Origin: Candidatus Latescibacterota bacterium
GTDB lineage: Bacteria; Latescibacterota; UBA2968
Direction: 5' to 3'
NCBI GenBank assembly: GCA_965207885.1
Contig: OZ242311.1
Coordinates: forward strand, 1,888,001-1,952,000
DNA length: 64,000 nt
The position numbers and the translations under genes are program-made. Shown piece after piece: positions 1-10,999 of the stretch (positions within the stretch are counted from its first letter, which is position 1; the number at the start of each line of letters is the position of its first letter). Below the pieces are notes generated by a model. The model was not told where the DNA came from. It saw nothing but the letters and a program-made list of their open reading frames with translations, and made no database searches.

Positions 1-679
1 GCCCGCCATCCAGACTGACCTTAATTTGAAACTTTTCATCAACCAAAAACTGCTTCATCTCGTCGGTCAACAGCGTGCCATTGGTCACAATGCCAAAACC
101 AACCTGCACCCCCAGCCGCGCGCCCTGGGATTTGGCAAATGGGACAAGCTCCTGCATCAATGGAAAATTCAGAAGCGGCTCTCCGCCAAAAAAATCGATC
201 TGGCACCGCTCAAACACCTGAGCCTCGGCGATGATCCAGCGTATCGCTTGCTCGGCAACGTCCGGTTGCATCAGCATTGCCTTACCGCCATAATCCCCGC
301 CATGGGCAAAGCAATACGCGCATTGGATATTGCACGTATGGGAAACGTGCAAAGACACCTGCAAACGATCTATCTGCGAAACCCCACAGGCTGCCACCCC
401 TTCTGTCGTCGGTACATCGGATACCACAGGTAGAGCACCATCCGAAATCAAACCCACCTGAGCCAATTCTTCGATAGCCTCGGTAATTTCCTCTGCCTCG
501 TATTGATCAGCCAGAACCTGAACAACCCGATCAACAGACAAGCCCTCACAGCACGCTAAAATTGACTGGAACAGGGTATCCAATTCAAAAAACAGACCTG
601 TCTCAACCTGATAGACAATCGGCTGTTTGCGCTCTTCAGTTTGAAAAAGATGCATGTCGCATTTTTTAATGCACAGCAT
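1..679 (-). CDS. Radical SAM peptide maturase with N-terminal RRE (PqqD-like) domain, CteB/PapB-like (probably SPASM); truncated by window edge
   Basis: Not in ORF track. Manual translation from ATG 679 (RBS GAGGAG): MLCIKKCDMHLFQTEERKQPIVYQVETGLFFELD...LHVSHTCNIQCAYCFAHGGDYGG...DFFGGEPLLNF...VTNGTLL...VSLDGG; open to position 1. Confidence 0.92.
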   Translation of the reverse strand, partial: MLCIKKCDMHLFQTEERKQPIVYQVETGLFFELDTLFQSILACCEGLSVDRVVQVLADQYEAEEITEAIEELAQVGLISDGALPVVSDVPTTEGVAACGVSQIDRLQVSLHVSHTCNIQCAYCFAHGGDYGGKAMLMQPDVAEQAIRWIIAEAQVFERCQIDFFGGEPLLNFPLMQELVPFAKSQGARLGVQVGFGIVTNGTLLTDEMKQFLVDEKFQIKVSLDGG

Positions 680-702
680 AGACGCACTCCTCAGAACCGA
701 AA

Positions 703-888
703 TCACTTATCCCGATCATCAGCCTGATCAAAATCGTCCCAATCGTCATCGTCATTGGGAAAGGGGAGGGGAGGAACAGCTGTCCAAGATGGACATCCAA
801 TTTCTAAACTCGTAGTTCGATATGTCCGAATATCCCCCTCTGTATCTATAGTTCCATTGACCAGGGTCAACTTGCGTCGCGTTGCCAT
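703..888 (-). CDS. Putative RiPP precursor peptide (61 aa)
   Basis: RBS AAGGAGG; 23 bp upstream of the RRE-rSAM gene; leader RKLTLVNG resembles the KHIKILNG-type RRE-binding leader; core GCPSWTAVPPLPFP; acidic tail. Confidence 0.8.
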   Translation of the reverse strand: MATRRKLTLVNGTIDTEGDIRTYRTTSLEIGCPSWTAVPPLPFPNDDDDWDDFDQADDRDK

Positions 889-930
889 GTTATCCTCCTT
901 GTAAGAATCTAAATACCATCTGCCCTATAC

Positions 931-946
931 TGCAAAATGTGTGCCA
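931..946 (-). promoter_or_regulatory. sigma54 (-24/-12) promoter
   Basis: Minus strand reads TGGCAC-ACATT-TTGCA, matching TGGCAC-N5-TTGCW, about 40 bp upstream of the precursor start. Confidence 0.9.
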
Positions 947-961
947 AAAATCGTTCTAAAA

Positions 962-993
962 CAAAAAAGCACTTGAAAAATTCTCAAGTGCTT
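962..993 (-). terminator. Intrinsic terminator downstream of the kinase-bEBP gene
   Basis: 10-bp stem AAGCACTTGA/TCAAGTGCTT followed by a T run on the minus strand. Confidence 0.65.
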
Positions 994-1056
994 AAAAAAA
1001 CAAGGAAATAAAATTTAAGAATTACGTGTGTTGCAAATACGACATTCAGGCATAAG

Positions 1057-1173
1057 TGTATATAACAGGATACACTTACAAACGTTTATTTAACTAAAAT
1101 ACTCATAACTATCTGATTTATATAAATATTTCTAACTGTAAATAATTAGATACACTGTATATATCAGGATACA
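1057..1173. promoter_or_regulatory. Three TGTA-N10-TACA palindromic boxes (candidate bEBP upstream activator sequences)
   Basis: 1057-1074 TGTATATAACAGGATACA; 1137-1154 TGTAAATAATTAGATACA; 1156-1173 TGTATATATCAGGATACA. Confidence 0.75.
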
Positions 1174-1184
1174 TATATTCAAGT

Positions 1185-4100
1185 CTATCTCAACCCCAGA
1201 CGATTAATCTTTTTATGCAGACCAACGCGCGTCATCCCCAATTCTCTGGCAGTATGCGTAATATTGTCCTCGCATTTCGCGAGCGCGTCTCGAATCAACC
1301 GTCTCTCATACTCCTGGACATGGTCTTGTAAACGCCCCTGGAATTCGACAGAGACATCTGGTACTGTATGCCCGATGGATTCTGAAAACAAATCGGGCGT
1401 AATATCACCCTCTTCTTCTGCCAATGCAACCGCACGCCGAATCTCATTCTCCAGCTCGCGCACATTGCCCGGCCAATTGTAATTTGTGAGTGCCCTGATA
1501 GCCCCCACTGTCAGCCCCCCAACCGACTTGTTGGCATCTTCTTTCGCCCGGGTGAGCAAATGTTTGGCCAATAACGGCACATCTTCAATATATTCCCGCA
1601 AAGGCGGCATATCGATCTGAATCACACGCAACCGGTAATACAAATCTTCGCGGAACGAGCCGTTTTCAACTTCTTTTTTTAAGTCTCGATTGGTCGCTGC
1701 AATAATGCGTACATCCACTGTGCGATCCACTGTTTCTCCAACACGCCGAATCTCCCCTTCCTGCAACACCCGCAACAAACTCCTTTGCAATTGCGGTGGG
1801 GCATCGGCGATTTCATCCAAAAAAACCGTCCCTCCATTGGCAGCCTCAAAAATCCCCTTATGATCTTCAGTCGCGCCAGTAAACGCCCCTTTTTTATGCC
1901 CAAACAACTCACTCTGCAACAACTCTGGTGAGAGTGTAGCACAATTTTGCGACAAAAACCGCTGGTCTTTGCGCGTACTATTGTAGTGTATGGCACGCGC
2001 AGCCAATTCTTTGCCCGTACCTGTTTCGCCTTGCACAAGCACGGAAACATCGCTCTTTGCAGCGCGTTCTATAAGTTGATAGATCGCCTGCATCGCATCG
2101 CTTTGTCCGAACATATCGCCAAGTTGATGCCGCCTTTCGACCTCTTGCTGCAAATATTGTGCTTTCTCTTCCAATTGTTCGTACATCCTCGCATTGACCA
2201 GCGCCATCCCCACCAGATTCGCAAATGCCTGCAAAAACGTCTGATCTGCTTCAGAAAATGCATTGCCAATGCCGCGATGATCCACATACAGAGCACCCAT
2301 CACACCCTCGTTCAGATGGAATACGGGCACAGACAATACAGATCGAATGTGGTAGTCTATCACGCTCTGGTAGCGATTGAGCCTTTCATCTATTTGGGCG
2401 TCCATACTCAAAACGGGTTCATTTGTTTCAATAACCCGACGAATAATACCCCGACTCAGTGCTTCTGCATCATCTGCTTCTACATTGTAGTAGCGCACGG
2501 CATCGACTGCAAAGCCTCGCGGAGTCTCATTTTTAATTGCAACAAGCACGCGCTCTGCTGAATAAACAGCCAACAAATTACCCAAAGTCCGGTCCAATAA
2601 TACTTTGACATCGCGTTCTGTGGTCAACTCCCGGCTCACATCGTAGAGCAAGCGCCAGCGATCAACAGATAAACTTTCAGAACTGGATGCGGCATTCTCG
2701 CCGCGAGAAGATTCACGCAATTGATTTAATAACACCCGTGTTTTCTCCAGAAAATAAGACATTTCCATTTCTTTAAACGCCTGTTTTGCCGCTTCGAGAT
2801 GTGCTTGCGCTTTTGGTACATCACCGCGCTGGAGATAAAACTCTCCAGCCATCAGCAATGCACGCGCCCAGTGATCGCCTTTGGACTCTCTTCGGCATTC
2901 AATCGCCTGCTCAAAAGCCTCTTCAGCCTCAGCTATCCGTCCTGCCTGAGCGAAAGCCGCACCAACACCGCAATACACCAGGGGCAATATGCCCGTGTAC
3001 ATACCCGATGTTTGCTGCGTACCTTCGCTGGCTCTTTCTGCCCATTCAAGTGCTTCTTCTGTATCTCCCATTCTCACAGCAGCCGTTGCTGCAATCGCAT
3101 AAGCGCGATAAATATAATCTTTGCGCGGTGTTTCCAAGAATCGCTCTGCTGAGGTCTCGACATATTCCAATGCCCCGGCAAAATCACCGCATTCCAGTGC
3201 CATTTCTCCCAGCCATAAAAAATTTACTGCCTCCCAGTACACAAACCCTCGCTTCTGCCACTCACCAATGACTTCATGGCAAACGGCTTCCGCACGATCA
3301 CGTTCACCCAGATAAAAATAAACTCTTTGAAGTAAATTGAGTACCCAAGTGCGCTGGTGCTCAAGTCCCTGTTGCTGAGATGTTTTTACAGTAGCTTCCA
3401 TACGTGCTTTGGCTGTCTTAAATTGAAATCCTATTAATGCAACCAAACCTTCTCGCCCCTGTATAAAAGCGTCCTTTTGTGGATCTTCCAGCACACGACG
3501 TTTCTCTATTTCCCGGCGCATATACGCAATCGCTTCCTCGTGCCGCCCAGACACATCGCACAAATAAGCCAAACTGCTTAATGCTTGAATTTCTCCGTCG
3601 AAATCACCGAGTTCCCGATAAAGCCGCAATGCCTCCAGCATATATTTTTCTGCTATTTCCCCATGTTGAAGTACGCTGTGAATACTACCTTCAGTCCACA
3701 AAATACGTGCCTTTAAATCATACCGATCATCGGGCAATAACGCCTTTGCCTCGTCTAAAAGTTTTAGTGCCCTATTGTGCTGACCACAATTGCGCAGCGC
3801 ATCTGCATAATCGCACAAAAATTCGACCGCATCTGCCTGTGATTTAAAAGCGTCATCCATCTGTTGCACAACTTCAAACCGTCTCAATGCCTGGCGATAA
3901 GCGTGTTTTGCCAATGCTTTTTTGCCCGATAGGCGCATATAATTCACAGCCTTATTTTGTTCTCCCGCCGCTACAAAATGATCTGCCAATGCTTCTGTCA
4001 ATTCTTCTGCATCTTCCGACTCTTCCAGAGCATTGCCAATTTCTCGATGTAACAGACGCCGCCGCACATCTTGCATGCGATCATAAATTGCCCGTCGATA

Positions 4101-5984
4101 CAAACCCTGTGAAAAACGATATCGCTCTTCATCGCCATAAGTAATTAACAGCCCTTCTGCAATCAGGTCTTCGAGCACATCCAACAACTCCAACTCATCA
4201 CCGAGCCAGATAGAAGCCAATAATTCCAAAGAAAAATCATTTAAAAAAACACACGCGTATTCCATTACCTGACGTTGCACCGCAGGAAGGGCAGTTATGC
4301 GCCTGTACAAAACCTCTGAAATATCATCGGACAACAAAGTTTCGGGAAATTCTCCCCACTGCCAATCGCCGTACACATTCTGCCAAACCACATCGGCATG
4401 CACCAGTGTCCTCACGGCCTCCACGACAAACAGGGGTTGCCCACCCGTTTCCCTGAACAGGGTTTGCAAGGCATCCGGCGGAATGGATCGCTCCCCCAAC
4501 ATCGACGCCGATAGATACCCCACCTCTTCTCGCGGTAGATCTTTCAACTGAATCCGGATCGCTTCAGAAAATTCATTGCTGTGTATAAAATTCTCAATTT
4601 CCTTTGGAATAGATTCCCTATTGGACCCTTGACAGGTCAGGCATAACAAAAATGGACACGGGTCTGGATCGCGCAACACATACTGCAAAAATTCCAGGGT
4701 CAATTCATCAAGCCATTGAATATCTTCCAAACACAACACAATGGGCTGTTTCTGCCGCAGGCGTTTTAATGACTGCAACCAGCGATCCATAACAGAAAAC
4801 TTGTCCGTCTCTAATGAATCGGGCACTCTCCCCACCAAATCCGTCGTCTTTACCCGCTGAAAAGCATCGATCAACGCACCGTATATTTGTCCACCCTCTT
4901 CCCGCCCTGCCCCTTTCAAACAAAGAAAATCGTGGATCAAAGCGTCACCCAATAATTCTTCAGCCAGTCTCGATTTGCCCACCCCTGCCTCACCCGAGAT
5001 CAAAACCACGCGCTGCTCGCCAGCTTGTACATCCCGCAACATCGCACGCAACGTCTTCATCTCGGATTCGCGCCCGACAAATTGCGGCCGCATCACTTTT
5101 CTATGCACATCGCGCTGCTCGTCATCCGGTAGCACAAACCCCGATGATGCCACACCATTTAACGCCTGCACCAGTTCTTCTGCCGACTGATAACGATCAA
5201 CAGGCTCCTTTGCCAGCAACTTCAGCACAATTTGTTGCGTCTGGGCCGGAACCTCGACATGGGCTTCAGCCATTGATGGCGGTGACTCTCGAATATGCTT
5301 CAAAATAACGGACACCGGGTTTTGTCCAGAAAAGGGCGGTGCGCCCGTGAGCATCTCATATAAAATCACGCCCAATGAATACAAATCTGACCGATGATCC
5401 ACCCATAACCCCTTACCCTGCTCTGGCGACATATACTCGGCGGTACCAATCGTCGCGCCCGTATGCGTAATGGAGGCACTATGCAGATGTCTAAATTTAG
5501 CCAACCCCAGATCCAGAATGGTAGTATCAATTCCCTCTTCAGTTTCCAAAACCATAATATTGGATGGCTTGAGATCGCGATGCACCGCACCCTGCGCGTG
5601 GACATAAGCCACCCCCTCGGCAATTTGTTGCATCAGAGCAAAAAAGGACGAAGCTCGGAATTGTCCCAACAATACGCGATCGGCTATTATTTTTTCCAAC
5701 GTCTTTCCGGGCAAATATTCCATCGTAAAATAGGGACGCTCCTCGGCAAAGCCCCAGGTGTATGTGCGCACCAGGCGCGGGTGCTCAAATCTGTTCAACA
5801 CCTGAAACTCTCTGTGAAAACGTCGATGCACAGACTTCTGATCCACCATCGTATTCAAAATTTTGAGCGCGCACTCCCGGTCTTGCTCCAGGTCTAACAC
5901 CCGATAAACTTCTCCCATGCCCCCGGTTCCCAGGTGCGCCTGGATTTGATACCTTTTGTCGAGAATGGTGTCGATTTTAAACAT
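1185..5984 (-). CDS. Ser/Thr kinase - AAA/STAND ATPase - TPR - GAF - sigma54 activator - Fis HTH fusion
   Basis: Kinase GTGGMG, ALK, HRDLKPSN, DLG, YMSPEQ; GEAGVGKS + LEDIQW; TPR-like helices; GAF (IRSVLSVP, GALYVD); GETGTGKE, GAFTGA, FLDEI, WPGNVREL; C-terminal HTH. Confidence 0.93.
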   Translation of the reverse strand: MFKIDTILDKRYQIQAHLGTGGMGEVYRVLDLEQDRECALKILNTMVDQKSVHRRFHREFQVLNRFEHPRLVRTYTWGFAEERPYFTMEYLPGKTLEKIIADRVLLGQFRASSFFALMQQIAEGVAYVHAQGAVHRDLKPSNIMVLETEEGIDTTILDLGLAKFRHLHSASITHTGATIGTAEYMSPEQGKGLWVDHRSDLYSLGVILYEMLTGAPPFSGQNPVSVILKHIRESPPSMAEAHVEVPAQTQQIVLKLLAKEPVDRYQSAEELVQALNGVASSGFVLPDDEQRDVHRKVMRPQFVGRESEMKTLRAMLRDVQAGEQRVVLISGEAGVGKSRLAEELLGDALIHDFLCLKGAGREEGGQIYGALIDAFQRVKTTDLVGRVPDSLETDKFSVMDRWLQSLKRLRQKQPIVLCLEDIQWLDELTLEFLQYVLRDPDPCPFLLCLTCQGSNRESIPKEIENFIHSNEFSEAIRIQLKDLPREEVGYLSASMLGERSIPPDALQTLFRETGGQPLFVVEAVRTLVHADVVWQNVYGDWQWGEFPETLLSDDISEVLYRRITALPAVQRQVMEYACVFLNDFSLELLASIWLGDELELLDVLEDLIAEGLLITYGDEERYRFSQGLYRRAIYDRMQDVRRRLLHREIGNALEESEDAEELTEALADHFVAAGEQNKAVNYMRLSGKKALAKHAYRQALRRFEVVQQMDDAFKSQADAVEFLCDYADALRNCGQHNRALKLLDEAKALLPDDRYDLKARILWTEGSIHSVLQHGEIAEKYMLEALRLYRELGDFDGEIQALSSLAYLCDVSGRHEEAIAYMRREIEKRRVLEDPQKDAFIQGREGLVALIGFQFKTAKARMEATVKTSQQQGLEHQRTWVLNLLQRVYFYLGERDRAEAVCHEVIGEWQKRGFVYWEAVNFLWLGEMALECGDFAGALEYVETSAERFLETPRKDYIYRAYAIAATAAVRMGDTEEALEWAERASEGTQQTSGMYTGILPLVYCGVGAAFAQAGRIAEAEEAFEQAIECRRESKGDHWARALLMAGEFYLQRGDVPKAQAHLEAAKQAFKEMEMSYFLEKTRVLLNQLRESSRGENAASSSESLSVDRWRLLYDVSRELTTERDVKVLLDRTLGNLLAVYSAERVLVAIKNETPRGFAVDAVRYYNVEADDAEALSRGIIRRVIETNEPVLSMDAQIDERLNRYQSVIDYHIRSVLSVPVFHLNEGVMGALYVDHRGIGNAFSEADQTFLQAFANLVGMALVNARMYEQLEEKAQYLQQEVERRHQLGDMFGQSDAMQAIYQLIERAAKSDVSVLVQGETGTGKELAARAIHYNSTRKDQRFLSQNCATLSPELLQSELFGHKKGAFTGATEDHKGIFEAANGGTVFLDEIADAPPQLQRSLLRVLQEGEIRRVGETVDRTVDVRIIAATNRDLKKEVENGSFREDLYYRLRVIQIDMPPLREYIEDVPLLAKHLLTRAKEDANKSVGGLTVGAIRALTNYNWPGNVRELENEIRRAVALAEEEGDITPDLFSESIGHTVPDVSVEFQGRLQDHVQEYERRLIRDALAKCEDNITHTARELGMTRVGLHKKINRLGLR

Positions 5985-6109
5985 GACCTCTTCTACTTTC
6001 TTCAGATCAACAGGTTCGACGATGTAACTACGGGGCAGTCATTCGCAACCCCGTTTCCAAAGTGATATTCGAATGGGCATAATATCAATTACTTAATTAA
6101 CAGTATATT

Positions 6110-6157
6110 ATAATAAGAGCGATATATCGTCCTAATATACAATATATCGCCCTTATT
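6110..6157. promoter_or_regulatory. Inverted repeat upstream of the kinase-bEBP gene
   Basis: AATAAGAGCGATATAT ... ATATATCGCCCTTATT in an AT-rich intergenic region. Confidence 0.35.
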
Positions 6158-6221
6158 AGAGAGAACAAGTCTATTTTTAATTAAAATAGCCGAACCGGTT
6201 ATCCAGCAATCATTATATTTT

Positions 6222-7226
6222 TCAATGCATCAAATTCATGATTTTTCCAACCTTTTTTGCGACACGGGGCGCAGTTAGCTCTGTTGTATTTTTCAGACCC
6301 ATCAAAAAACGGCGGGCAGAGTCATCAAACGACAGGCGATGCTGCGCAACATGTGTTTCCAGCATATCCAGATCGCGCAACACCTCGTCCTGTAGCGCAG
6401 GAAGGGGCATCATCCACAAACGCCTCAACAGCGTCTTCATAATCAAAATCGGGTCATGCGGATCTTGAGCCAAACGACTGTAAAAAGCCTCCAGGGGCAA
6501 TTCCCAATACAACTTCTGCACAATAAGCCCCAGATATTCCCGGTTCTTCCTGGCAATATCGCTCGCAGAAAAGCGATCAGACGCCGAACCTCTATCACCC
6601 TCATGCATGCGACATCGAAGCGTGGGTTGTTTGATAATCCCTATCTTAAACCCGGCGCGTATCATGCGAATCCACATATCGTAATCTTGCCCGCGAATCA
6701 AACGCTCGTCAAAACAGCCGACCCTGTCATAACACGACCGATGGGCAACCACAGTTGGACTACACAATTCAAACCGCCCGAACAAATACATCACCATATC
6801 GCCTATAGGCGGCATCCTCGCTTCAAAAGACCGCACGGGCACATCGCTTCTCTCTCCCTCTATAAATTCATAACCCGTATAGACAAACTTCAAATCCGGA
6901 TCTTCTGCAAACTGCGCCGCGTGCAACTCGAGCTTATTCGGCAACCCGATATCATCATCGTCCAAAATCCAAACATACTCCCCCGTCAAGTATTTCAGAC
7001 CCATATTCACAGCAGACGCCTTCCCACCATTTGCCTTTTCCATATAGCGAATCCGATCTCCAAACCGCCTGATCACCTCTGCCGTATCATCCGTAGAACC
7101 ATCGTTCACCACAATGAGTTCAAAACCCTGATACGTCTGTTTCAAAACGCTCTCAACAGCCTCCGCAACATAATTTGCGCGATTATATGTTGGGATAATC
7201 ACCGAAAATTTTGGATTTTGTGTCAA
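6222..7226 (-). CDS. Glycosyltransferase family 2
   Basis: SVIIPTYN, VVNDGSTD, LDDDD, QDYDMW; probable TTG start at 7226 after AAGAGG. Confidence 0.88.
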   Translation of the reverse strand: MTQNPKFSVIIPTYNRANYVAEAVESVLKQTYQGFELIVVNDGSTDDTAEVIRRFGDRIRYMEKANGGKASAVNMGLKYLTGEYVWILDDDDIGLPNKLELHAAQFAEDPDLKFVYTGYEFIEGERSDVPVRSFEARMPPIGDMVMYLFGRFELCSPTVVAHRSCYDRVGCFDERLIRGQDYDMWIRMIRAGFKIGIIKQPTLRCRMHEGDRGSASDRFSASDIARKNREYLGLIVQKLYWELPLEAFYSRLAQDPHDPILIMKTLLRRLWMMPLPALQDEVLRDLDMLETHVAQHRLSFDDSARRFLMGLKNTTELTAPRVAKKVGKIMNLMH

Positions 7227-7251
7227 ACTACACCTCTTGAGAAAATAGAAC

Positions 7252-7282
7252 AAAAAACCACGCCTGAAGGACGTGGTTTTTA
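7252..7282. terminator. Bidirectional intrinsic terminator
   Basis: AAAAACCACG-CCTGAAGGA-CGTGGTTTTT. Confidence 0.7.
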
Positions 7283-7314
7283 TTTCGTCTAAATATGATC
7301 TTTGGAGTTACTTC

Positions 7315-8274
7315 CTAACCGGCATCCATCACTTCCCTAACACCTGCAATAATATTATCTCGGTCAGGAAAAACGTGATCTTCTAATTGAGGCGTGTACG
7401 GGATGGGCACATGGAGAGCGCAGACGCGTTTGACAGACGCTTTCATCTTTGCAAAAGTCTCTGCATCTTCGGTCGCCACGGCGGCTATCTCGGCGGAGGC
7501 ACCCGCTGTGGGACCCGCCTCATCGGCAATGACCAGCCGCCCGGTCTTTTGCACAGACGCGCGAATAGCATCGCAATCGAGCGGAACCAATGTGCGTGGA
7601 TCCAGCACCTCGACGGAAACACCCTCTTTGTCCAGCACCTCCGCAGCCGCCAGCGCTTCGTGTACCAGCCAGGCCAGCGCGACAATCGTGACATCTGCAC
7701 CCTCGCGTTTAATATCCGCTTTGCCCAGAGGCAGGGCATAAGGCTCTTCGGGAACCTCGCCTGCAAAATCCATCAGGCGATTGGACTCAAAAGAAATAAC
7801 GGGATTATCATCCCGAATAACGGTCTTGAGAAGCCCCTTCATATCATAAGGCGTCGAAGGCAAAATCATCTTCAATCCCGCCAGATTCATAAACATCGAA
7901 TACGGACTCTGCGAGTGCTGCGCCGCAACCCTCCTGCCGCCACCGACCGACGTGCGGAAAGTAATCGGAAATTTCACCTGCCCCCCGAACATATAGTGAA
8001 TCTTGGCTGCCTGATTCACAATCTGGTCCATCGCCACAAAAGAAAACGTAACCATACTCCAGTTGATAATCGGACGGAAACCAGACCCCGCAGCGCCAAC
8101 AGCGATACCTGTAAGCGCACCTTCGGCAATGGGCGTAGCGCGCACGCGCTCAGACCCAAACTCTTTGACGAGCGCATCGGGCGCATCGGTTGACAGATGA
8201 AACGTCGTTGGATCGCGCCTCATTTCTTCTACAAGGGCTTCCATCCCGGCCTGTGCATAAGAGATTTTTCTCAT
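7315..8274 (-). CDS. 2-oxoacid/acetoin dehydrogenase E1 beta subunit
   Basis: TPIAE, DQIVNQAAK, AAQHSQ, DPRTLVPLD. Confidence 0.9.
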   Translation of the reverse strand: MRKISYAQAGMEALVEEMRRDPTTFHLSTDAPDALVKEFGSERVRATPIAEGALTGIAVGAAGSGFRPIINWSMVTFSFVAMDQIVNQAAKIHYMFGGQVKFPITFRTSVGGGRRVAAQHSQSPYSMFMNLAGLKMILPSTPYDMKGLLKTVIRDDNPVISFESNRLMDFAGEVPEEPYALPLGKADIKREGADVTIVALAWLVHEALAAAEVLDKEGVSVEVLDPRTLVPLDCDAIRASVQKTGRLVIADEAGPTAGASAEIAAVATEDAETFAKMKASVKRVCALHVPIPYTPQLEDHVFPDRDNIIAGVREVMDAG

Positions 8275-8289
8275 CGTATTATCCTCGAC

Positions 8290-9255
8290 TCACTCGGCAA
8301 AAACATCTTCGACAGCAGCTTCTAAATCTGGAAATGGACTCTCTTTGGAAAATTGGACCGCCTCCTCAATCTCCGCGAGAATTTCACCATCCATCTCTTG
8401 CCACGCCTCCTGGGTAATACAGTTCTGATCCATCAGACCCGCGACAAATCGCTCAATCGGATCTCTATTCTTCCATGCGCGGAGCTCGCTCTGCGGTCTT
8501 GGATCAGCTGCGCCAACCCTCTCCGTATGCCCCCGCCAGCGATAAGTCTTACACTCGATCAGCGAAGGACCCTCGCCCTTGCGCGCGCGGGCAACAGCCT
8601 CCTGAGCCGCGTCATAAACCGCCATCACATCATTCCCATCGACAACCACCCCCGGGATATCGTATCCCGCGGCACGCGCAGCAACATCGCTATGCGCCAG
8701 CGTACTCGCCGCCGGGGTGCTCGCCGCGTAAAGATTGTTCTCGCAAACATAGATCATAGGCAACTTCCACGCCGCAGCGATATTGATCGACTCGTGAAAC
8801 GGACCTGCATTTGACGCTCCATCGCCAAAAAACGAAACCGCAACGCGACCCTTGCCCTCGAGTTGCGCGGCCAGGCCAGCACCCGTAACAATCGGTATGC
8901 CACCTGCGACAATGCCATTAGCACCAAGCATCCCAATGCTAAAATCGGCAATATGCATCGACCCCCCTTTGCCCTTGCAATACCCCGTCTCCCGCCCATA
9001 AAGCTCAGCCATCATACGCTTCAAATCCGCGCCCTTGGCAATACAATGCCCGTGCCCCCGATGCGTACTGATAATCTGATCATCCGGATTGAGCGCGGCA
9101 CAGACACCCGTGGCAACGGCCTCCTCGCCGATATAGCAATGGACCACGCCGTAAATATCCCCCGCGCGATAATCATCAGACGCACGCTCTTCAAAGCGCC
9201 GGATCGTTTGCATAATCCGCAGCATCTCGAGTTGTTTCTCTTGTGTAAGAGCCAT
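8290..9255 (-). CDS. 2-oxoacid/acetoin dehydrogenase E1 alpha subunit
   Basis: STHRGHGH, GKGGSMH, ThDP motif GDGA...ENN, TYRWRGH; start MALTQ at 9255. Confidence 0.92.
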   Translation of the reverse strand: MALTQEKQLEMLRIMQTIRRFEERASDDYRAGDIYGVVHCYIGEEAVATGVCAALNPDDQIISTHRGHGHCIAKGADLKRMMAELYGRETGYCKGKGGSMHIADFSIGMLGANGIVAGGIPIVTGAGLAAQLEGKGRVAVSFFGDGASNAGPFHESINIAAAWKLPMIYVCENNLYAASTPAASTLAHSDVAARAAGYDIPGVVVDGNDVMAVYDAAQEAVARARKGEGPSLIECKTYRWRGHTERVGAADPRPQSELRAWKNRDPIERFVAGLMDQNCITQEAWQEMDGEILAEIEEAVQFSKESPFPDLEAAVEDVFAE

Positions 9256-9268
9256 AAGATAATCTCCA

Positions 9269-10999
9269 CTATGCTGGCCTATCACCCTTTTTAACCGGCG
9301 CTGTTCGGCTATCAACGCCCGGCAACATTTTTGACGGATCTCTCGTAACAATAACATCGATAATCGTAGGCATATCGCGATTGGCAATACCCTCGGCAAA
9401 AGCACCTTGCAATGCCCCGGGATCATCCACGCGAATACCCTGACAGCCAAGCGCACGGGCCGTATCGGCATAATCCGTCTCGCTCAAATCACTCGACTGA
9501 TAGCGCCCCGCATACATATTGTGCTGAAGCGCTTTGACATAACCCGAAGCCGCATTGTTCACAATCGCGAGCGTAAACCCAAGCTCAAGACGCCGGGCTG
9601 TCTCCAATTCACCGAGCACCATATTAAACCCCGCATCTCCCGTCAGACCAACAACGGGAGAATCACCCGCTGCGAGTTGCGCGCCCATTGTACCCGGCAA
9701 CCCATAACCGATAGAAGCAAATCCGCGGTTGGCAATATACGTGCGCCCAGACCGGGTCGAATCGTAAAGCAAACCAGTCCAATGCGCGGCAAAACCACCA
9801 TCCACAACCAGAATCCCGTCTTCGGGCATCGCGTTTTGCAACTCGCGCACCACCCGCGCCATATTGACGGGGCTCTCGTCAGAAGCATAACGCGGCTCCG
9901 CCTCGGCGCGCCAGACAGCCATCCGCTCTGAGACCTCGGCCAAATAGCCCACGCGCATCTCCTGTATCCCCACCCGGTCAGAGGACAAACACGCCTGAAG
10001 ATCGCGCAAACCCTCCGCCGCATCGCCCCAGAGTGAAACGGTAGCAGGCGTCGTGCGCCCGATTTCCTCAGCCACAATATCGAGATGAATAAAAGGCACA
10101 TCGCGCGGAATCAAATCATAGCGTTTCGTGGCAATCTCGCCCATCTTGCATCCAACAGACAGAATACAATCTGCAGACGCAATCAAATCATTGGCAATCC
10201 GCGACCAGCGCCCGAACAGCCCCACGCTGAGCGGATGAATACAGGGAATCGCACCCTTGCCACTCAGCGTTTGCGCAACTGGAATACTAAACGCCTCGGC
10301 AAAGCTCTGCAACTCGCAATACGCCCCGGAAAGATGGACACCGCCGCCAGCGAGAATAATCGGCCGCCGGGCATCGCGCAAACACGCCGCCGCGCGCGCA
10401 ACCGCATCTCGCCCCGGGCGTGAACGCTGTGCGGGAATACTCAGCGTTTCTGGATCCACAAAAAAATCCGCTCTGGGATAATCATACTCCCCATGGGCAA
10501 TATCCTCGGGAACATCCAGCACAACAGGTCCCGGCCGCCCGGACGTGGCAACAGCGTACGCGCGCCGCACAAGCTCGGGAATGCGATAGCCGCTCTCAAT
10601 CCGAATAAGCGCTTTAGCCGCTGGCGCCAGAATCTCCGTCTGACGCGCCTCCTGCGTCATATTCTTCCACGAATGCTCGCGATTGCTATTGCCCACAACA
10701 ACAATGAGCGGAACACCGGCATTCAGAGACTCCACCAGCCCCGTAACCAGATTCGTCGCCCCGGGACCCAGCGTACCATCGCATATACCGGGACGCCCAG
10801 TCACGCGCGCCCAGGCATCGGCGGCAAAAATACCACACCGCTCATCATTGATCAACGTATGCGAAAGCCCCAGTTCGCGCACCGCATCGTAAAAAGGTAG
10901 AAGCTGAAACCCCCCCATACCGAACATAGGCGCAGGATTGTGGAGGCGAAACATCTCGGCAAGAGCCTGCCCGCCATTCATGTGTACAACTGAAGACAT
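9269..10999 (-). CDS. ThDP-dependent acetolactate synthase-like enzyme
   Basis: TLGPGATN, SGRPGPVVLDVP, GDAGF...NN. Confidence 0.88.
   Translation of the reverse strand: MSSVVHMNGGQALAEMFRLHNPAPMFGMGGFQLLPFYDAVRELGLSHTLINDERCGIFAADAWARVTGRPGICDGTLGPGATNLVTGLVESLNAGVPLIVVVGNSNREHSWKNMTQEARQTEILAPAAKALIRIESGYRIPELVRRAYAVATSGRPGPVVLDVPEDIAHGEYDYPRADFFVDPETLSIPAQRSRPGRDAVARAAACLRDARRPIILAGGGVHLSGAYCELQSFAEAFSIPVAQTLSGKGAIPCIHPLSVGLFGRWSRIANDLIASADCILSVGCKMGEIATKRYDLIPRDVPFIHLDIVAEEIGRTTPATVSLWGDAAEGLRDLQACLSSDRVGIQEMRVGYLAEVSERMAVWRAEAEPRYASDESPVNMARVVRELQNAMPEDGILVVDGGFAAHWTGLLYDSTRSGRTYIANRGFASIGYGLPGTMGAQLAAGDSPVVGLTGDAGFNMVLGELETARRLELGFTLAIVNNAASGYVKALQHNMYAGRYQSSDLSETDYADTARALGCQGIRVDDPGALQGAFAEGIANRDMPTIIDVIVTRDPSKMLPGVDSRTAPVKKGDRPA

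What the first reader, a model, noticed from the sequence alone, without database searches (positions are those of the whole stretch)
1..5984. Candidate new system: sigma54 radical-SAM RiPP operon controlled by a kinase-STAND-TPR-GAF enhancer-binding protein
Seen in order on the minus strand: a 1599-aa kinase/ATPase/TPR/GAF/GAFTGA/HTH protein, three TGTA-N10-TACA boxes, a terminator, a consensus sigma54 promoter, a 61-aa peptide gene with a strong RBS, and an RRE-radical-SAM gene. Established: sigma54 promoters need a bEBP bound to upstream palindromes, and RRE-rSAM enzymes modify an adjacent precursor. Inference: the giant signalling protein switches on a modified peptide. It may sense the product or a host/phage ligand through its TPRs, as STAND sensors do. 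I do not know of a described RiPP class with this regulator.
Basis: partly seen in the sequence, partly recalled or inferred. Interest (0 to 1): 0.9.

Follow-up and report, generated by a model that had tools for sequence, protein, structure and literature searches.

The report
Giant sigma-54 switch driving peptide operon
A sponge-associated bacterium carries three copies of a cassette in which a 1,600-residue kinase/STAND/TPR/GAF sigma-54 activator sits beside a small one-cysteine peptide gene and the radical-SAM enzyme that probably cross-links it, and the same kind of switch drives other symbiosis-type genes elsewhere.

Summary
The module is conserved. The genome holds three paralogous copies. 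In the genus, 32 of 40 giant-activator copies lie beside the rSAM gene, 2 do not, and 6 sit at contig ends.

The enzyme is a full RRE–radical-SAM–SPASM maturase of the SCIFF/QhpD/PapB clade, but it scores below every curated family cut-off. The peptide belongs to an unannotated family of 119 clusters. It has one invariant Cys, six hypervariable residues after that Cys, and a constrained Pro-rich and acidic tail. A methyltransferase often follows. No protease or exporter is conserved.

The activator is not RiPP-specific. The same boxes–hairpin–sigma-54-promoter cassette, behind homologous giant activators, drives LRR/WD40/cohesin or TPR proteins in other loci. In the sister family 13 of 19 copies have no rSAM beside them.

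The kinase–STAND–GAF–sigma-54 fusion was found only in this phylum among the loci searched.

Verdict: a real, conserved, undescribed variant of known kinds (a ranthipeptide-like RiPP and a bEBP). The chemistry, the signal and the sigma-54 dependence are all inferred. Interest 0.6.

The parts
1..679 (-). 5' part (226 codons) of the RRE-radical SAM-SPASM peptide maturase. The whole gene is 476 aa and ends left of the window at G000:C1:1887252.
   Evidence: Pfam: Radical_SAM, Fer4_12 and SPASM. NCBIfam best hits are SCIFF maturase 264.8 bits (cut-off 425) and QhpD 262.3 (cut-off 453). CX3CX2C at 116-123 and CX2CX5CX3C at 409-422. Closest solved chain is 5wgg_A, E 3.4e-60.
703..888 (-). 61-codon precursor peptide gene. 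The leader is about residues 1-27, the only Cys is residue 32, and a Pro-rich stretch and an Asp-rich tail follow.
   Evidence: ORF with RBS. Alignment A3 of 26 homologues has invariant N11, G18, C32 and P44. 119 clusters in the 5.8-billion-protein set, none with a Pfam domain. dN/dS is 0.25 in the leader, 0.82 in the six residues after Cys and 0.13 in the tail.
932..946 (-). sigma-54 type promoter (-24 GG / -12 GC), about 45 nt upstream of the peptide start codon.
   Evidence: Same element at offset 269-280 in 18 of 18 same-genus loci. GG-N10-GC variants in the sister family.
957..993 (-). Hairpin plus T run (intrinsic-terminator-like) between the boxes and the promoter. It probably ends the activator's transcript.
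   Evidence: A hairpin plus T run with a different stem sequence holds the same position in the other families.
1057..1074 (.). Palindromic box 3 (proposed enhancer site), centred about 144 nt upstream of the predicted start.
1137..1173 (.). Palindromic boxes 2 and 1 (1137-1154 and 1156-1173).
1185..5984 (-). 1599-aa activator. Window coordinates by domain: Hanks kinase about 5166-5951, AAA_16 (STAND NTPase) about 4659-5084, helical and TPR sensor about 2715-3887, GAF about 2199-2615, sigma-54 AAA+ with GAFTGA and lid about 1368-2111, Fis-type HTH about 1200-1313.
   Evidence: More than 120 database proteins at 79-91% identity have the same Pfam set.

Best explanation
This is a self-contained sigma-54 regulatory cassette with a RiPP-like cargo.

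The 1599-aa protein is a bacterial enhancer-binding protein. Its usual small sensory domain is replaced by a Hanks kinase, a STAND (AAA_16) NTPase and a TPR sensor, placed ahead of a GAF domain.

Inferred mechanism of activation:
- A signal read by the TPR/STAND part, possibly modulated by phosphorylation and by the GAF domain, allows oligomerisation.
- The HTH dimers sit on the three palindromes just downstream of the activator's own stop codon.
- The GAFTGA AAA+ ring remodels sigma-54 holoenzyme at the promoter that lies behind the activator's terminator.

Predicted transcript: it encodes a 61-residue precursor, an RRE-rSAM-SPASM maturase and, in many copies, a class I methyltransferase.

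Inferred chemistry:
- The maturase binds the conserved leader (about residues 5-27) through its RRE.
- It most likely joins the single invariant Cys to a carbon of a downstream residue as a thioether, as in ranthipeptides and QhpC. This would close a ring that displays the hypervariable residues after the Cys.

Each genome keeps 2-3 such cassettes. They differ mainly in the TPR sensor, the HTH, the boxes and the peptide loop, so they look like insulated parallel circuits. The same switch family also drives eukaryote-like repeat-protein genes.

Shown: anatomy, conservation, synteny, family placement. Inferred: sigma-54 dependence, box binding, the signal, the thioether.
For: Anatomy.

Three paralogous loci in this genome: activators 80-81% identical, rSAMs 91-93%, peptides 66-72% over the roughly 35 N-terminal residues that tblastn aligned.

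Phyletic pattern in the genus: 15 of 20 genomes have both the rSAM and the giant activator. The same 5 lack both.

Adjacency by coordinates:
- In the genus, 32 of 40 copies are adjacent, 2 are not and 6 sit at contig ends.
- In the sister family, 6 of 19 are adjacent. Those activators are 40-42% identical and their rSAMs 49-54%.
- Adjacency also holds in a third family and in another genus (L061, L064, L065).

Promoter: conserved in 18 of 18 genus loci. rpoN is present.

Boxes:
- Both half-sites change together in all boxes of a locus, and the changes go with the HTH recognition helix.
- 6 of 6 TGCATC-type loci share one helix variant, and 3 of 3 loci with the 17-nt box share another.
- TPR (0.76) and HTH (0.77) are the least conserved domains among 14 intact copies, against 0.86-0.87 for kinase, GAF and AAA+.

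Peptide: purifying selection on leader and tail.

Complex model of enzyme plus peptide:
- Score 0.71, best of 3 controls 0.00.
- That mark was reached by 58 of 80 solved complexes and by 2 of 110 mismatched pairs. These counts hold only roughly, because my own alignments were used.
- The runs agree in at least 40% of contacts, and the partner's pLDDT is 46.
- Contacts join peptide 5-27 to enzyme 21-37, 68-75 and 88-90.

Enzyme clade: best NCBIfam hits are thioether-forming maturases, and the closest solved chain is 5wgg_A.

Weak hint: a 133-nt contig from a sponge RNA library, with 5 differences, lies across the peptide/rSAM junction at 633-765. DNA carry-over is not excluded.
Against: - No experiment bears on any step.
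- The rSAM scores below every curated equivalog cut-off, so the chemistry cannot be read from family membership.
- The peptide has one conserved Cys, and no acceptor residue is conserved across families. The acidic tail is absent in the sister family.
- No protease or exporter is conserved next to the operon. The M16 peptidases and the C39-ABC transporter near locus B occur in no other locus examined.
- The HTH-box co-variation could be simple co-inheritance of adjacent DNA, because related loci are not independent.
- The giant activator often has other cargo.
- The complex-model pass may reflect likeness to a solved maturase-leader complex. I recall that 5wgg holds one.
- The strict promoter pattern alone is not significant in this window.
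Confidence: 0.7

Rival explanations
1. The operon and the regulation are as described, but the rSAM performs a different reaction. Examples are oxidation of the Cys to formylglycine as anaerobic sulfatase maturases do, a carbon-carbon or carbon-oxygen cross-link on the aromatic or Pro-rich stretch, or epimerisation.
For: The rSAM is below all thioether-family cut-offs. It also matches anaerobic sulfatase maturase models (TIGR03942, E 6.9e-33; PDB 4k36/4k37, E 2e-15) and cyclophane and other SPASM maturases. In many genus copies the Cys is followed two residues later by Pro. From recall, this resembles the sulfatase Cys-x-Pro motif.
Against: The four best NCBIfam hits at E 1e-69 to 1e-78, plus PapB at 5e-68, are thioether-forming or closely related maturases with an N-terminal RRE, which sulfatase maturases lack. 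The Cys-x-Pro spacing is not kept in the window's own copy or in the sister family.
Confidence: 0.2
2. The modified peptide is not an exported natural product. It is an intracellular small protein, either a cofactor-like or subunit-like partner (as QhpC is for QhpD) or a feedback ligand of the activator's TPR sensor.
For: No peptidase or exporter is conserved in the loci. The C-terminal tail is under strong purifying selection, dN/dS 0.13. QhpD is one of the two best family hits. The peptide has no double-glycine site that I could see.
Against: The hypervariable loop with conserved flanks is more typical of diversified secreted RiPPs. No quinohemoprotein dehydrogenase genes were seen in the flanks. 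Export or cleavage genes could lie elsewhere in the genome.
Confidence: 0.25
3. The cassette is a conflict or defence device. The STAND-TPR part senses a phage or foreign protein, as Avs-type sensors do, and the transcriptional output (rSAM product, helicase) is the response.
For: STAND plus TPR plus kinase is a common make-up of defence sensors. PADLOC models match the kinase domain (PD-T4-6), the downstream UvrD-like helicase of type-C loci (GajB, E 3e-75) and a neighbouring 496-aa protein (PD-T7-3, E 2.5e-7). IS elements flank the loci.
Against: All PADLOC matches are to generic domains, and no defence system is complete. The rSAM is an RRE/SPASM peptide maturase with its own precursor, not a viperin-type enzyme. 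The other cargoes are secreted repeat proteins.
Confidence: 0.06
4. The adjacency is incidental. The boxes serve autoregulation or other genes, and the peptide ORF is not the enzyme's substrate.
For: Giant activators occur without the rSAM. One rSAM homologue (L027) has no activator in its flanks.
Against: The order activator-boxes-hairpin-promoter-peptide-rSAM is kept in 32 of 34 assessable genus copies and across three families. The peptide gene is under purifying selection. The complex model places the leader on the RRE.
Confidence: 0.04

Closest known systems
SCIFF/ranthipeptide maturases with their precursors (TIGR03974; PapB, NF047865; solved chain 5wgg/5why, which I recall as CteB)
   Same: Both have an N-terminal RRE, a CX3CX2C radical-SAM core and a SPASM domain with CX2CX5CX3C. 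Homology is full-length (E 1.4e-78 to TIGR03974; E 3.4e-60 to 5wgg_A). The precursor gene lies directly upstream, and the leader is modelled on the RRE.
   Different: Scores are below the family cut-offs (264.8 vs 425, 229.8 vs 340). The precursor has one invariant Cys instead of a Cys-rich core, matches no Pfam or NCBIfam model, and carries a long conserved C-terminal tail. The product is unknown.
QhpD/QhpC (quinohemoprotein amine dehydrogenase maturation, TIGR03906)
   Same: It is the second-best family hit, 262.3 bits over the full length. From recall, QhpD makes Cys-to-Asp/Glu thioethers in a small protein that is not exported as a free peptide. The genus peptides are Asp-rich downstream of the Cys.
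   Different: The score is below the cut-off of 453. No dehydrogenase subunit genes lie in the flanks. The Asp-rich tail is missing in the sister family.
GAF-domain enhancer-binding proteins (NifA, NorR, FhlA)
   Same: GAF, sigma-54 AAA+ with GAFTGA and a Fis-type HTH. NifA 387.7 bits and NorR 370.3 bits over residues about 1112-1599. Upstream palindromes and a -24/-12 promoter are present.
   Different: All scores are below the equivalog cut-offs. There are 1100 extra N-terminal residues (kinase, STAND NTPase, TPR). The target lies directly downstream of the activator's own terminator.
STAND transcription activators of biosynthetic genes: AfsR (SARP-NOD-TPR, phosphorylated by the kinase AfsK) and MalT/LAL regulators
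   Same: A P-loop NOD/AAA_16 plus a TPR sensor coupled to a DNA-binding output that turns on secondary-metabolite genes, with kinase input (PMC10936776, start of abstract as shown in the search listing; AfsK, MalT and LAL from recall). TPR_MalT gives a sub-threshold match, 34.6 bits against a cut-off of 45.
   Different: Those act on sigma-70-type holoenzyme through SARP or LuxR domains, and the kinase is a separate protein. Here the kinase is fused, and the output is a second, sigma-54-specific AAA+ ATPase.
TOMM system kinase/cyclase fusion protein (TIGR03903) beside NHLP-Burk TOMM clusters
   Same: A large Ser/Thr kinase with an ATPase-repeat body encoded next to a RiPP cluster (PMC2887384, figure-legend passage read). 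The activator matches the model at 290.1 bits in three stretches.
   Different: The score is below the cut-off of 705.75. The output here is GAF-sigma-54 AAA+-HTH and not a cyclase. The RiPP chemistry differs (rSAM, not cyclodehydratase).

Membership tests
Bacterial enhancer-binding proteins (sigma-54 activators) | AAA+ sigma-54 interaction domain with GAFTGA loop | tested here: met
   Sigma54_activat 250.7 bits at residues 1292-1457. GAFTGA at residue 1366 and Walker B at 1387.
Bacterial enhancer-binding proteins (sigma-54 activators) | C-terminal Fis-type HTH and upstream palindromic sites | tested here: met
   HTH_8 34.8 bits at 1558-1595. Three palindromes against 0.36 expected. Actual binding was not tested.
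Bacterial enhancer-binding proteins (sigma-54 activators) | Target promoter of -24 GG / -12 GC type, and rpoN in the genome | tested here: met
   (18 of 18 loci). One Sigma54_DBD gene, 196 bits.
Bacterial enhancer-binding proteins (sigma-54 activators) | Transcription depends on sigma-54 and on ATP hydrolysis by the activator | not testable with these tools
   This needs a reporter or an in-vitro transcription assay.
STAND NTPases | P-loop NTPase of the AAA_16/NACHT/NB-ARC type followed by a repeat sensor | tested here: met
   AAA_16 95.7 bits (cut-off 32.6), Walker A at 331, TPR_12 70.3 bits. nSTAND3 is just below its cut-off, 27.1 vs 27.2.
STAND NTPases | Ligand-triggered nucleotide exchange and oligomerisation | not testable with these tools
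   No assay was available.
Hanks-type Ser/Thr kinases | Gly loop, catalytic Lys, HRD, DFG-type and APE-type motifs | tested here: met
   Pkinase 166.7 bits. Gly loop at 19, Lys 41, HRD at 135, DLG at 158 and SPE at 186.
SCIFF maturase / ranthipeptide maturase (TIGR03974, NF047865) | Score above the curated equivalog cut-off | tested here: not met
   264.8 vs 425, and 229.8 vs 340.
SCIFF maturase / ranthipeptide maturase (TIGR03974, NF047865) | RRE + CX3CX2C + SPASM architecture | tested here: met
   PqqD-like RRE is sub-threshold only (17.2 vs 23.4 bits), but the alignment to TIGR03974 and to 5wgg_A starts at residues 15-21.
SCIFF maturase / ranthipeptide maturase (TIGR03974, NF047865) | Cys-rich precursor (six Cys in forty-five for SCIFF) | tested here: not met
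   One invariant Cys in 26 aligned precursors.
SCIFF maturase / ranthipeptide maturase (TIGR03974, NF047865) | Thioether between Cys sulfur and a non-alpha carbon | not testable with these tools
   This needs mass spectrometry or NMR of the product.
QhpD (TIGR03906) | Score above the cut-off and qhp dehydrogenase gene context | tested here: not met
   262.3 vs 453. The flanks hold a methyltransferase, an AraC-type HTH, unknowns and IS elements.
TOMM kinase/cyclase fusion (TIGR03903) | Score above the cut-off and a C-terminal cyclase | tested here: not met
   290.1 vs 705.75. The C-terminal third is GAF-AAA+-HTH.
RiPP biosynthetic cluster (general) | Short precursor gene next to an RRE-bearing modifying enzyme, with a conserved leader and a variable core | tested here: met
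RiPP biosynthetic cluster (general) | Leader peptidase and/or exporter in the cluster | tested here: not met
   None is conserved. The M16 and C39-ABC genes occur in 1 of 36 loci compared.

The most novel reading that the evidence does not exclude
The giant kinase-STAND-TPR-GAF activators are NLR-like host-signal receptors of sponge symbionts, fused directly to a sigma-54 motor. Each paralogue has its own sensor, its own HTH/box code and its own cargo. The cargoes are symbiosis factors. One kind is secreted eukaryote-like repeat proteins. The other, in this genus, is a thioether-cyclised peptide library whose hypervariable loop and conserved acidic aromatic tail engage a host protein. In that reading this would be a programmable, insulated family of receptor-to-promoter circuits, and a new RiPP class made for host interaction and not for killing competitors.
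Probability: 0.2. Interest if true: 0.85.

Novelty: new variant of a known kind. Interest (0 to 1): 0.6.

Why it matters
Regulator:
- It joins two oligomerising ATPases (a STAND switch and a sigma-54 AAA+ motor) and a Hanks kinase in one chain.
- I found this only in this candidate phylum among the loci searched.
- It would show how an NLR-like receptor can be wired straight to promoter melting.
- It offers a compact, orthogonal part set of sensor, HTH, box and promoter, with natural specificity variants.

Cargo:
- The precursor family is unannotated, with 119 clusters.
- Its one-Cys design and hypervariable loop point to a simple diversified macrocycle.
- The maturase lies between characterised thioether families.

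Biology:
- The same switch drives both the peptide and eukaryote-like repeat proteins.
- This links RiPP production to the gene set usually tied to sponge-symbiont recognition (PMC5735121, passages read).
- It gives a testable handle on what uncultivated symbionts sense in the host.

Tried and rejected
Checks that led nowhere or argued against an idea:
- Rfam scan of window 1-7000 at E<=1 gave no match, so the hairpin and leader are no known RNA family.
- PADLOC gave only domain-level hits, so the defence reading was kept only as a minor rival.
- I first took the M16 peptidases and the cNMP-C39-ABC transporter near locus B for the missing protease and exporter. They are separated from the operon by an IS, and none of the other 35 loci compared has them (only two weak 28% ABC matches turned up). 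I rejected them as part of the system.
70 came from other phyla at 21-30% identity, and none had a sigma-54 domain or an rSAM in its flank. Because of the cap this is 'not found in those searched', not absence.
- RNA evidence: three RNA-library runs held only about 5% of the sampled words. Laid contigs were mostly 90-95% alike, so they come from relatives. Depth cannot rank genes and DNA carry-over is possible. Stretches without cover are not interpreted.
- The strict box patterns I wrote (boxI-III) had the wrong spacing and are void.
- The sigma-70 promoter scan of 600-1300 gave 2 sites against 2.6 expected, which is uninformative.

Literature: ten searches.
- None returned a paper describing a sigma-54 or bEBP-controlled rSAM RiPP operon, a kinase-STAND-sigma-54 fusion, or this peptide family.
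- One search was poorly designed (2 of 4 terms) and proves little.
- PMC11832590 (passages read) lists ranthipeptides among sponge-MAG RiPP classes and says RiPPs are enriched in Poribacteria.

No earlier findings were seen.

Full report
OBSERVATION

- A 1599-aa ORF (1185-5984) carries Pkinase, AAA_16, TPR, GAF, Sigma54_activat, AAA_lid_14 and HTH_8 in that order.
- Its kinase motifs (Gly loop, Lys41, HRD135, DLG158, SPE186), the STAND Walker A (331), GAFTGA (1366) and Walker B (1387) are intact.
- Directly after its stop codon lie three TGTA-N10-TACA palindromes, at 1156-1173, 1137-1154 and 1057-1074.
- Next come a 12-bp-stem hairpin with a T run (967-993), TGGCAC-N5-TTGC (932-946), a strong RBS, a 61-codon ORF (703-888) and an rSAM gene that starts at 679.

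These elements are more than chance would give.
- The palindrome pattern occurs 5 times in the window against 0.36 expected, and 0 of 100 shuffles reach 5.
- It occurs 64 times in the 6.2-Mb genome, and this is the only place with two sites within 150 nt.
- The hairpin folds at -14.5 kcal/mol, z = -4.4.
- The promoter word alone is not significant, since 12 of 100 shuffles give at least one. Its weight comes from conservation, described below.
- Rfam has nothing here.

WHAT LIES LEFT OF THE WINDOW

The window is G000:C1:1888001-1952000.
- The rSAM gene is complete at 476 aa, with a SPASM domain and the CX2CX5CX3C motif.
- It is followed by a 302-aa protein without a Pfam hit above cut-off, an AraC-type HTH fragment, a 496-aa unknown and IS elements.
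- The 302-aa protein has 1461 relatives at E<=0.001 among 1.84 billion representatives, and most of them cover its first 200 residues.
- Of 10 relatives sampled from the 150 listed, 7 pass the Methyltransf_24 cut-off, 2 fall just below it and 1 has no hit.
- I therefore read it as a class I SAM methyltransferase with a C-terminal extension. This is transitive homology. Its own score, 18.8 bits, is below the cut-off.

THE ENZYME AND THE PEPTIDE

The rSAM's best NCBIfam matches are full-length:
- SCIFF maturase, 264.8 bits
- QhpD, 262.3 bits
- the Nif11-peptide rSAM, 256.4 bits
- a ScfB-related orphan, 232.8 bits
- PapB, 229.8 bits

All are below their cut-offs. The closest solved chain is 5wgg_A at E 3.4e-60 over residues 21-452. 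The enzyme is therefore an unassigned branch of the RRE-rSAM-SPASM clade whose characterised members make Cys thioethers. That last point is established knowledge, recalled.

The peptide matches no Pfam or NCBIfam model.
- An alignment of 26 homologues from four genera of three families keeps only Asn11, Gly18, Cys32 and Pro44.
- A profile search found 119 clusters in the 5.8-billion-protein collection. None has a Pfam domain, and the only name given is 'hypothetical protein'.
- Among 115 of them aligned, entropy peaks in the six residues after the Cys, while the leader, a Pro-rich stretch and an Asp-rich tail are nearly fixed.
- On 17 genus genes, mean pairwise dN/dS is 0.25 in the leader, 0.38 before the Cys, 0.82 in the six residues after the Cys and 0.13 in the Pro-rich and acidic tail.
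- The ORF is therefore a real gene, with a relaxed or diversifying loop between constrained flanks. Positive selection is not shown.

A complex model of enzyme and peptide passed.
- Score 0.71, best of 3 controls 0.00.
- The mark was reached by 58 of 80 solved complexes and by 2 of 110 mismatched pairs. These counts hold only roughly, because my own alignments were used.
- The runs agree in at least 40% of contacts, and the partner's pLDDT is 46.
- Peptide residues 5-27 lie on enzyme residues 21-37, 68-75 and 88-90, which is the RRE region, and on 341-346 and 452-476.
- A like maturase-leader complex has been solved (recalled for 5wgg), so the pass may show likeness only.

CONSERVATION OF THE MODULE

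Within this genome:
- There are three paralogous loci: A (the window), B (about 5.33 Mb) and C (about 1.38 Mb).
- Activators are 80-81% identical, rSAMs 91-93%, and peptides 66-72% identical over the roughly 35 N-terminal residues that tblastn aligned.

Within the phylum held (168 genomes):
- The rSAM (E<=1e-80) is in 25 genomes and the activator's STAND region (E<=1e-40) in 32.
- In the window's genus, 15 of 20 genomes have both, and the same five lack both.

Adjacency by coordinates, in the genus:
- Of 40 activator copies, 32 adjoin an rSAM.
- 2 do not, and one of those is a 642-aa fragment.
- 6 end at contig edges.

Adjacency in the sister family:
- Of 19 copies, 6 adjoin an rSAM and 13 do not. 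Those genomes have no rSAM at that threshold.
- I looked at 5 of the 13 directly.

Adjacency also holds in a third family (L061, L064) and in another genus (L065). One rSAM homologue (L027) has no activator in its flanks.

The regulatory elements are conserved too.
- In all 18 genus loci inspected, the promoter stands 269-280 nt into the extracted spacer.
- The sister family has TGGTAC/TGGCAT-N5-TTGC variants behind a hairpin of different sequence and the same shape.

THE BOXES AND THE HTH

Box sequence differs between paralogues, but it is the same within a locus and changes on both half-sites together.
- Four types were seen in 18 loci.
- The recognition helix of the HTH goes with the type. 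All 6 loci with the TGCATC type share one helix variant. All 3 loci with the 17-nt box share another.
- The TGTATC type has two variants (4 and 2 loci), and one of them is shared with the fourth box type.
- Among 14 intact genus activators, the TPR sensor (0.76 mean pairwise identity, 0.67 around residues 800-900) and the HTH (0.77) are the most divergent parts. Kinase (0.86), GAF (0.87) and the sigma-54 AAA+ (0.86) are the least divergent.

This fits paralogues that differ in input and in DNA address. Boxes and HTH are adjacent DNA and are inherited together, so the correlation is not independent evidence. The concerted change of both half-sites in all boxes of a locus is the better argument for a dimeric reader.

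THE REGULATOR IS NOT RiPP-SPECIFIC

Homologous giant activators with the same boxes-hairpin-promoter cassette have other genes behind them.
- In the third copy of genome G004, the downstream genes are a signal-peptide dockerin-LRR protein (510 aa), a 1509-aa multi-propeller WD40 protein and a 1204-aa cohesin-LRR protein.
- In the sister family, the cassette precedes two or three 800-865-aa TPR proteins, a 128-aa membrane protein followed by transposases, or a short sensor-less bEBP.
- In the window's own genome, an orphan cassette without an adjacent activator lies before a 253-aa and a 208-aa unknown and an 852-aa beta-helix protein with a type IX secretion sorting domain. That cassette has boxes of the TGCATC type, the hairpin and the promoter.

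LRR, WD40 and TPR proteins are the 'eukaryotic-like' repeat proteins enriched in sponge microbiomes and are proposed to mediate host recognition (PMC5735121, passages read). In this genus the link is the rule, but across the family the cargo is exchangeable.

DISTRIBUTION AND IDENTITY

- The top 120 database relatives of the activator (79-91% identity) all carry the whole domain set. The few names given are 'protein kinase' or 'sigma 54-interacting transcriptional regulator' from Candidatus Poribacteria or Gemmatimonadetes MAGs.
- Record titles of related genomes say Candidatus Latescibacterota or Gemmatimonadota. I leave the phylum name open.
- RNA and DNA runs that hold relatives are labelled sponge or coral metagenome.
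- A scan of 185,579 species' genomes with the STAND-TPR alignment kept 80 loci. 10 are from this phylum, and 9 of those have the kinase-STAND-GAF-sigma-54 set.
- The other 70 come from other phyla at 21-30% identity, without a sigma-54 domain or an rSAM in the flanks.

MECHANISM

Shown:
- the anatomy
- rpoN in the genome
- the conservation

Inferred from established bEBP and STAND biology:
- A signal at the TPR/NOD, with kinase and GAF inputs, licenses oligomerisation.
- The HTH binds the boxes centred about 144, 224 and 243 nt upstream of the predicted start.
- The AAA+ ring opens the sigma-54 closed complex.
- The hairpin ends the activator's own message, so the operon is silent without activation.

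The peptide is then bound by its leader and modified at Cys32. A thioether is the most likely chemistry. I put it at about 0.45-0.5 on its own. The methyltransferase may add a further mark.

No protease or exporter is conserved. An intracellular role therefore remains open.

NOVELTY

Both halves are variants of known kinds. The closest precedents are:
- GAF-bEBPs
- STAND activators of antibiotic genes such as AfsR (PMC10936776, start of abstract as shown in the search listing)
- the large kinase beside NHLP-Burk TOMM clusters (PMC2887384, passage read)
- SCIFF and ranthipeptide systems

None of my ten searches found the fusion, a sigma-54-controlled rSAM RiPP operon or this peptide family in print. 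Supplementary BGC tables of sponge-MAG papers were closed and may list these clusters generically.

VERDICT

This is a new variant of known kinds, of moderate to high interest.

Noticed in passing
L009:7960-8260 (G000:C1 about 5798580-5798880), minus strand: An orphan copy of the cassette: three palindromes of the TGCATC type, the same hairpin and a sigma-54 promoter. No giant activator lies next to it. Downstream are a 253-aa and a 208-aa unknown and an 852-aa beta-helix protein with FlgD_ig and a type IX secretion sorting tail. It may be driven in trans by the locus-C-type activator.
   Followed up: partly
L010:5374-10013 (G000:C1 about 215040-219680): A PAS histidine kinase and an NtrC-type response regulator are followed by the same hairpin and TGGCAC-N5-TTGC. 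Next come a 67-codon ORF, a paralogue of the 302-aa methyltransferase (83% identity) and an outer-membrane beta-barrel protein. A related small ORF interrupts the spacer of locus L042. The hairpin-promoter unit seems to move between regulators.
   Followed up: partly
L008:8847-13179 and seven other loci with TGCATC-type boxes: In 8 of 8 such loci the rSAM is followed by a 340-aa sensor-less bEBP (AAA+ and HTH only) and a 1093-aa protein. The C-terminal 600 residues of that protein are a UvrD/GajB-like helicase and its first 485 residues are unassigned. A 542-aa unknown lies upstream. This suggests a sigma-54 cascade.
   Followed up: partly
L007:2006-11233 (locus B, G000:C1 about 5325360-5334590): The methyltransferase gene is split by a frame change. 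An IS4/5-type transposase follows, then two M16 peptidases and a cNMP-binding C39-peptidase ABC transporter of the kind linked to NHLP/Nif11 peptides. None of these was found next to any other copy.
   Followed up: yes
window about 1106-1119, minus strand: An AT-rich block conserved between boxes 2 and 3. It resembles the IHF consensus as I recall it. No tool tested this.
   Followed up: no
window 703-770 (C-terminal third of the peptide): The strongly constrained Asp-rich tail with one Trp and one Phe three residues apart recalls, from memory only, acidic aromatic short linear motifs of eukaryotic adaptor-binding proteins and the acidic tip of SSB. It is absent in the sister family.
   Followed up: no
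L006:8106-9596 (G000:C1 1884106-1885596): A 496-aa protein without a Pfam hit gives a weak PADLOC match to the candidate defence gene PD-T7-3 (E 2.5e-7). IS3-type integrase genes flank the region.
   Followed up: no
L061:10401-11190 (genome G077): The peptide gene of this third-family locus reads in two frames. The leader is in one frame and the Cys-containing core is in another. The orthologue in L064 is in a single frame. This is either a frameshift or an assembly error.
   Followed up: no
window 6222-9471, minus strand: Upstream neighbours of the activator are ordinary: a family 2 glycosyltransferase and the beta and alpha subunits of a thiamine-dependent 2-oxoacid dehydrogenase E1.
   Followed up: yes
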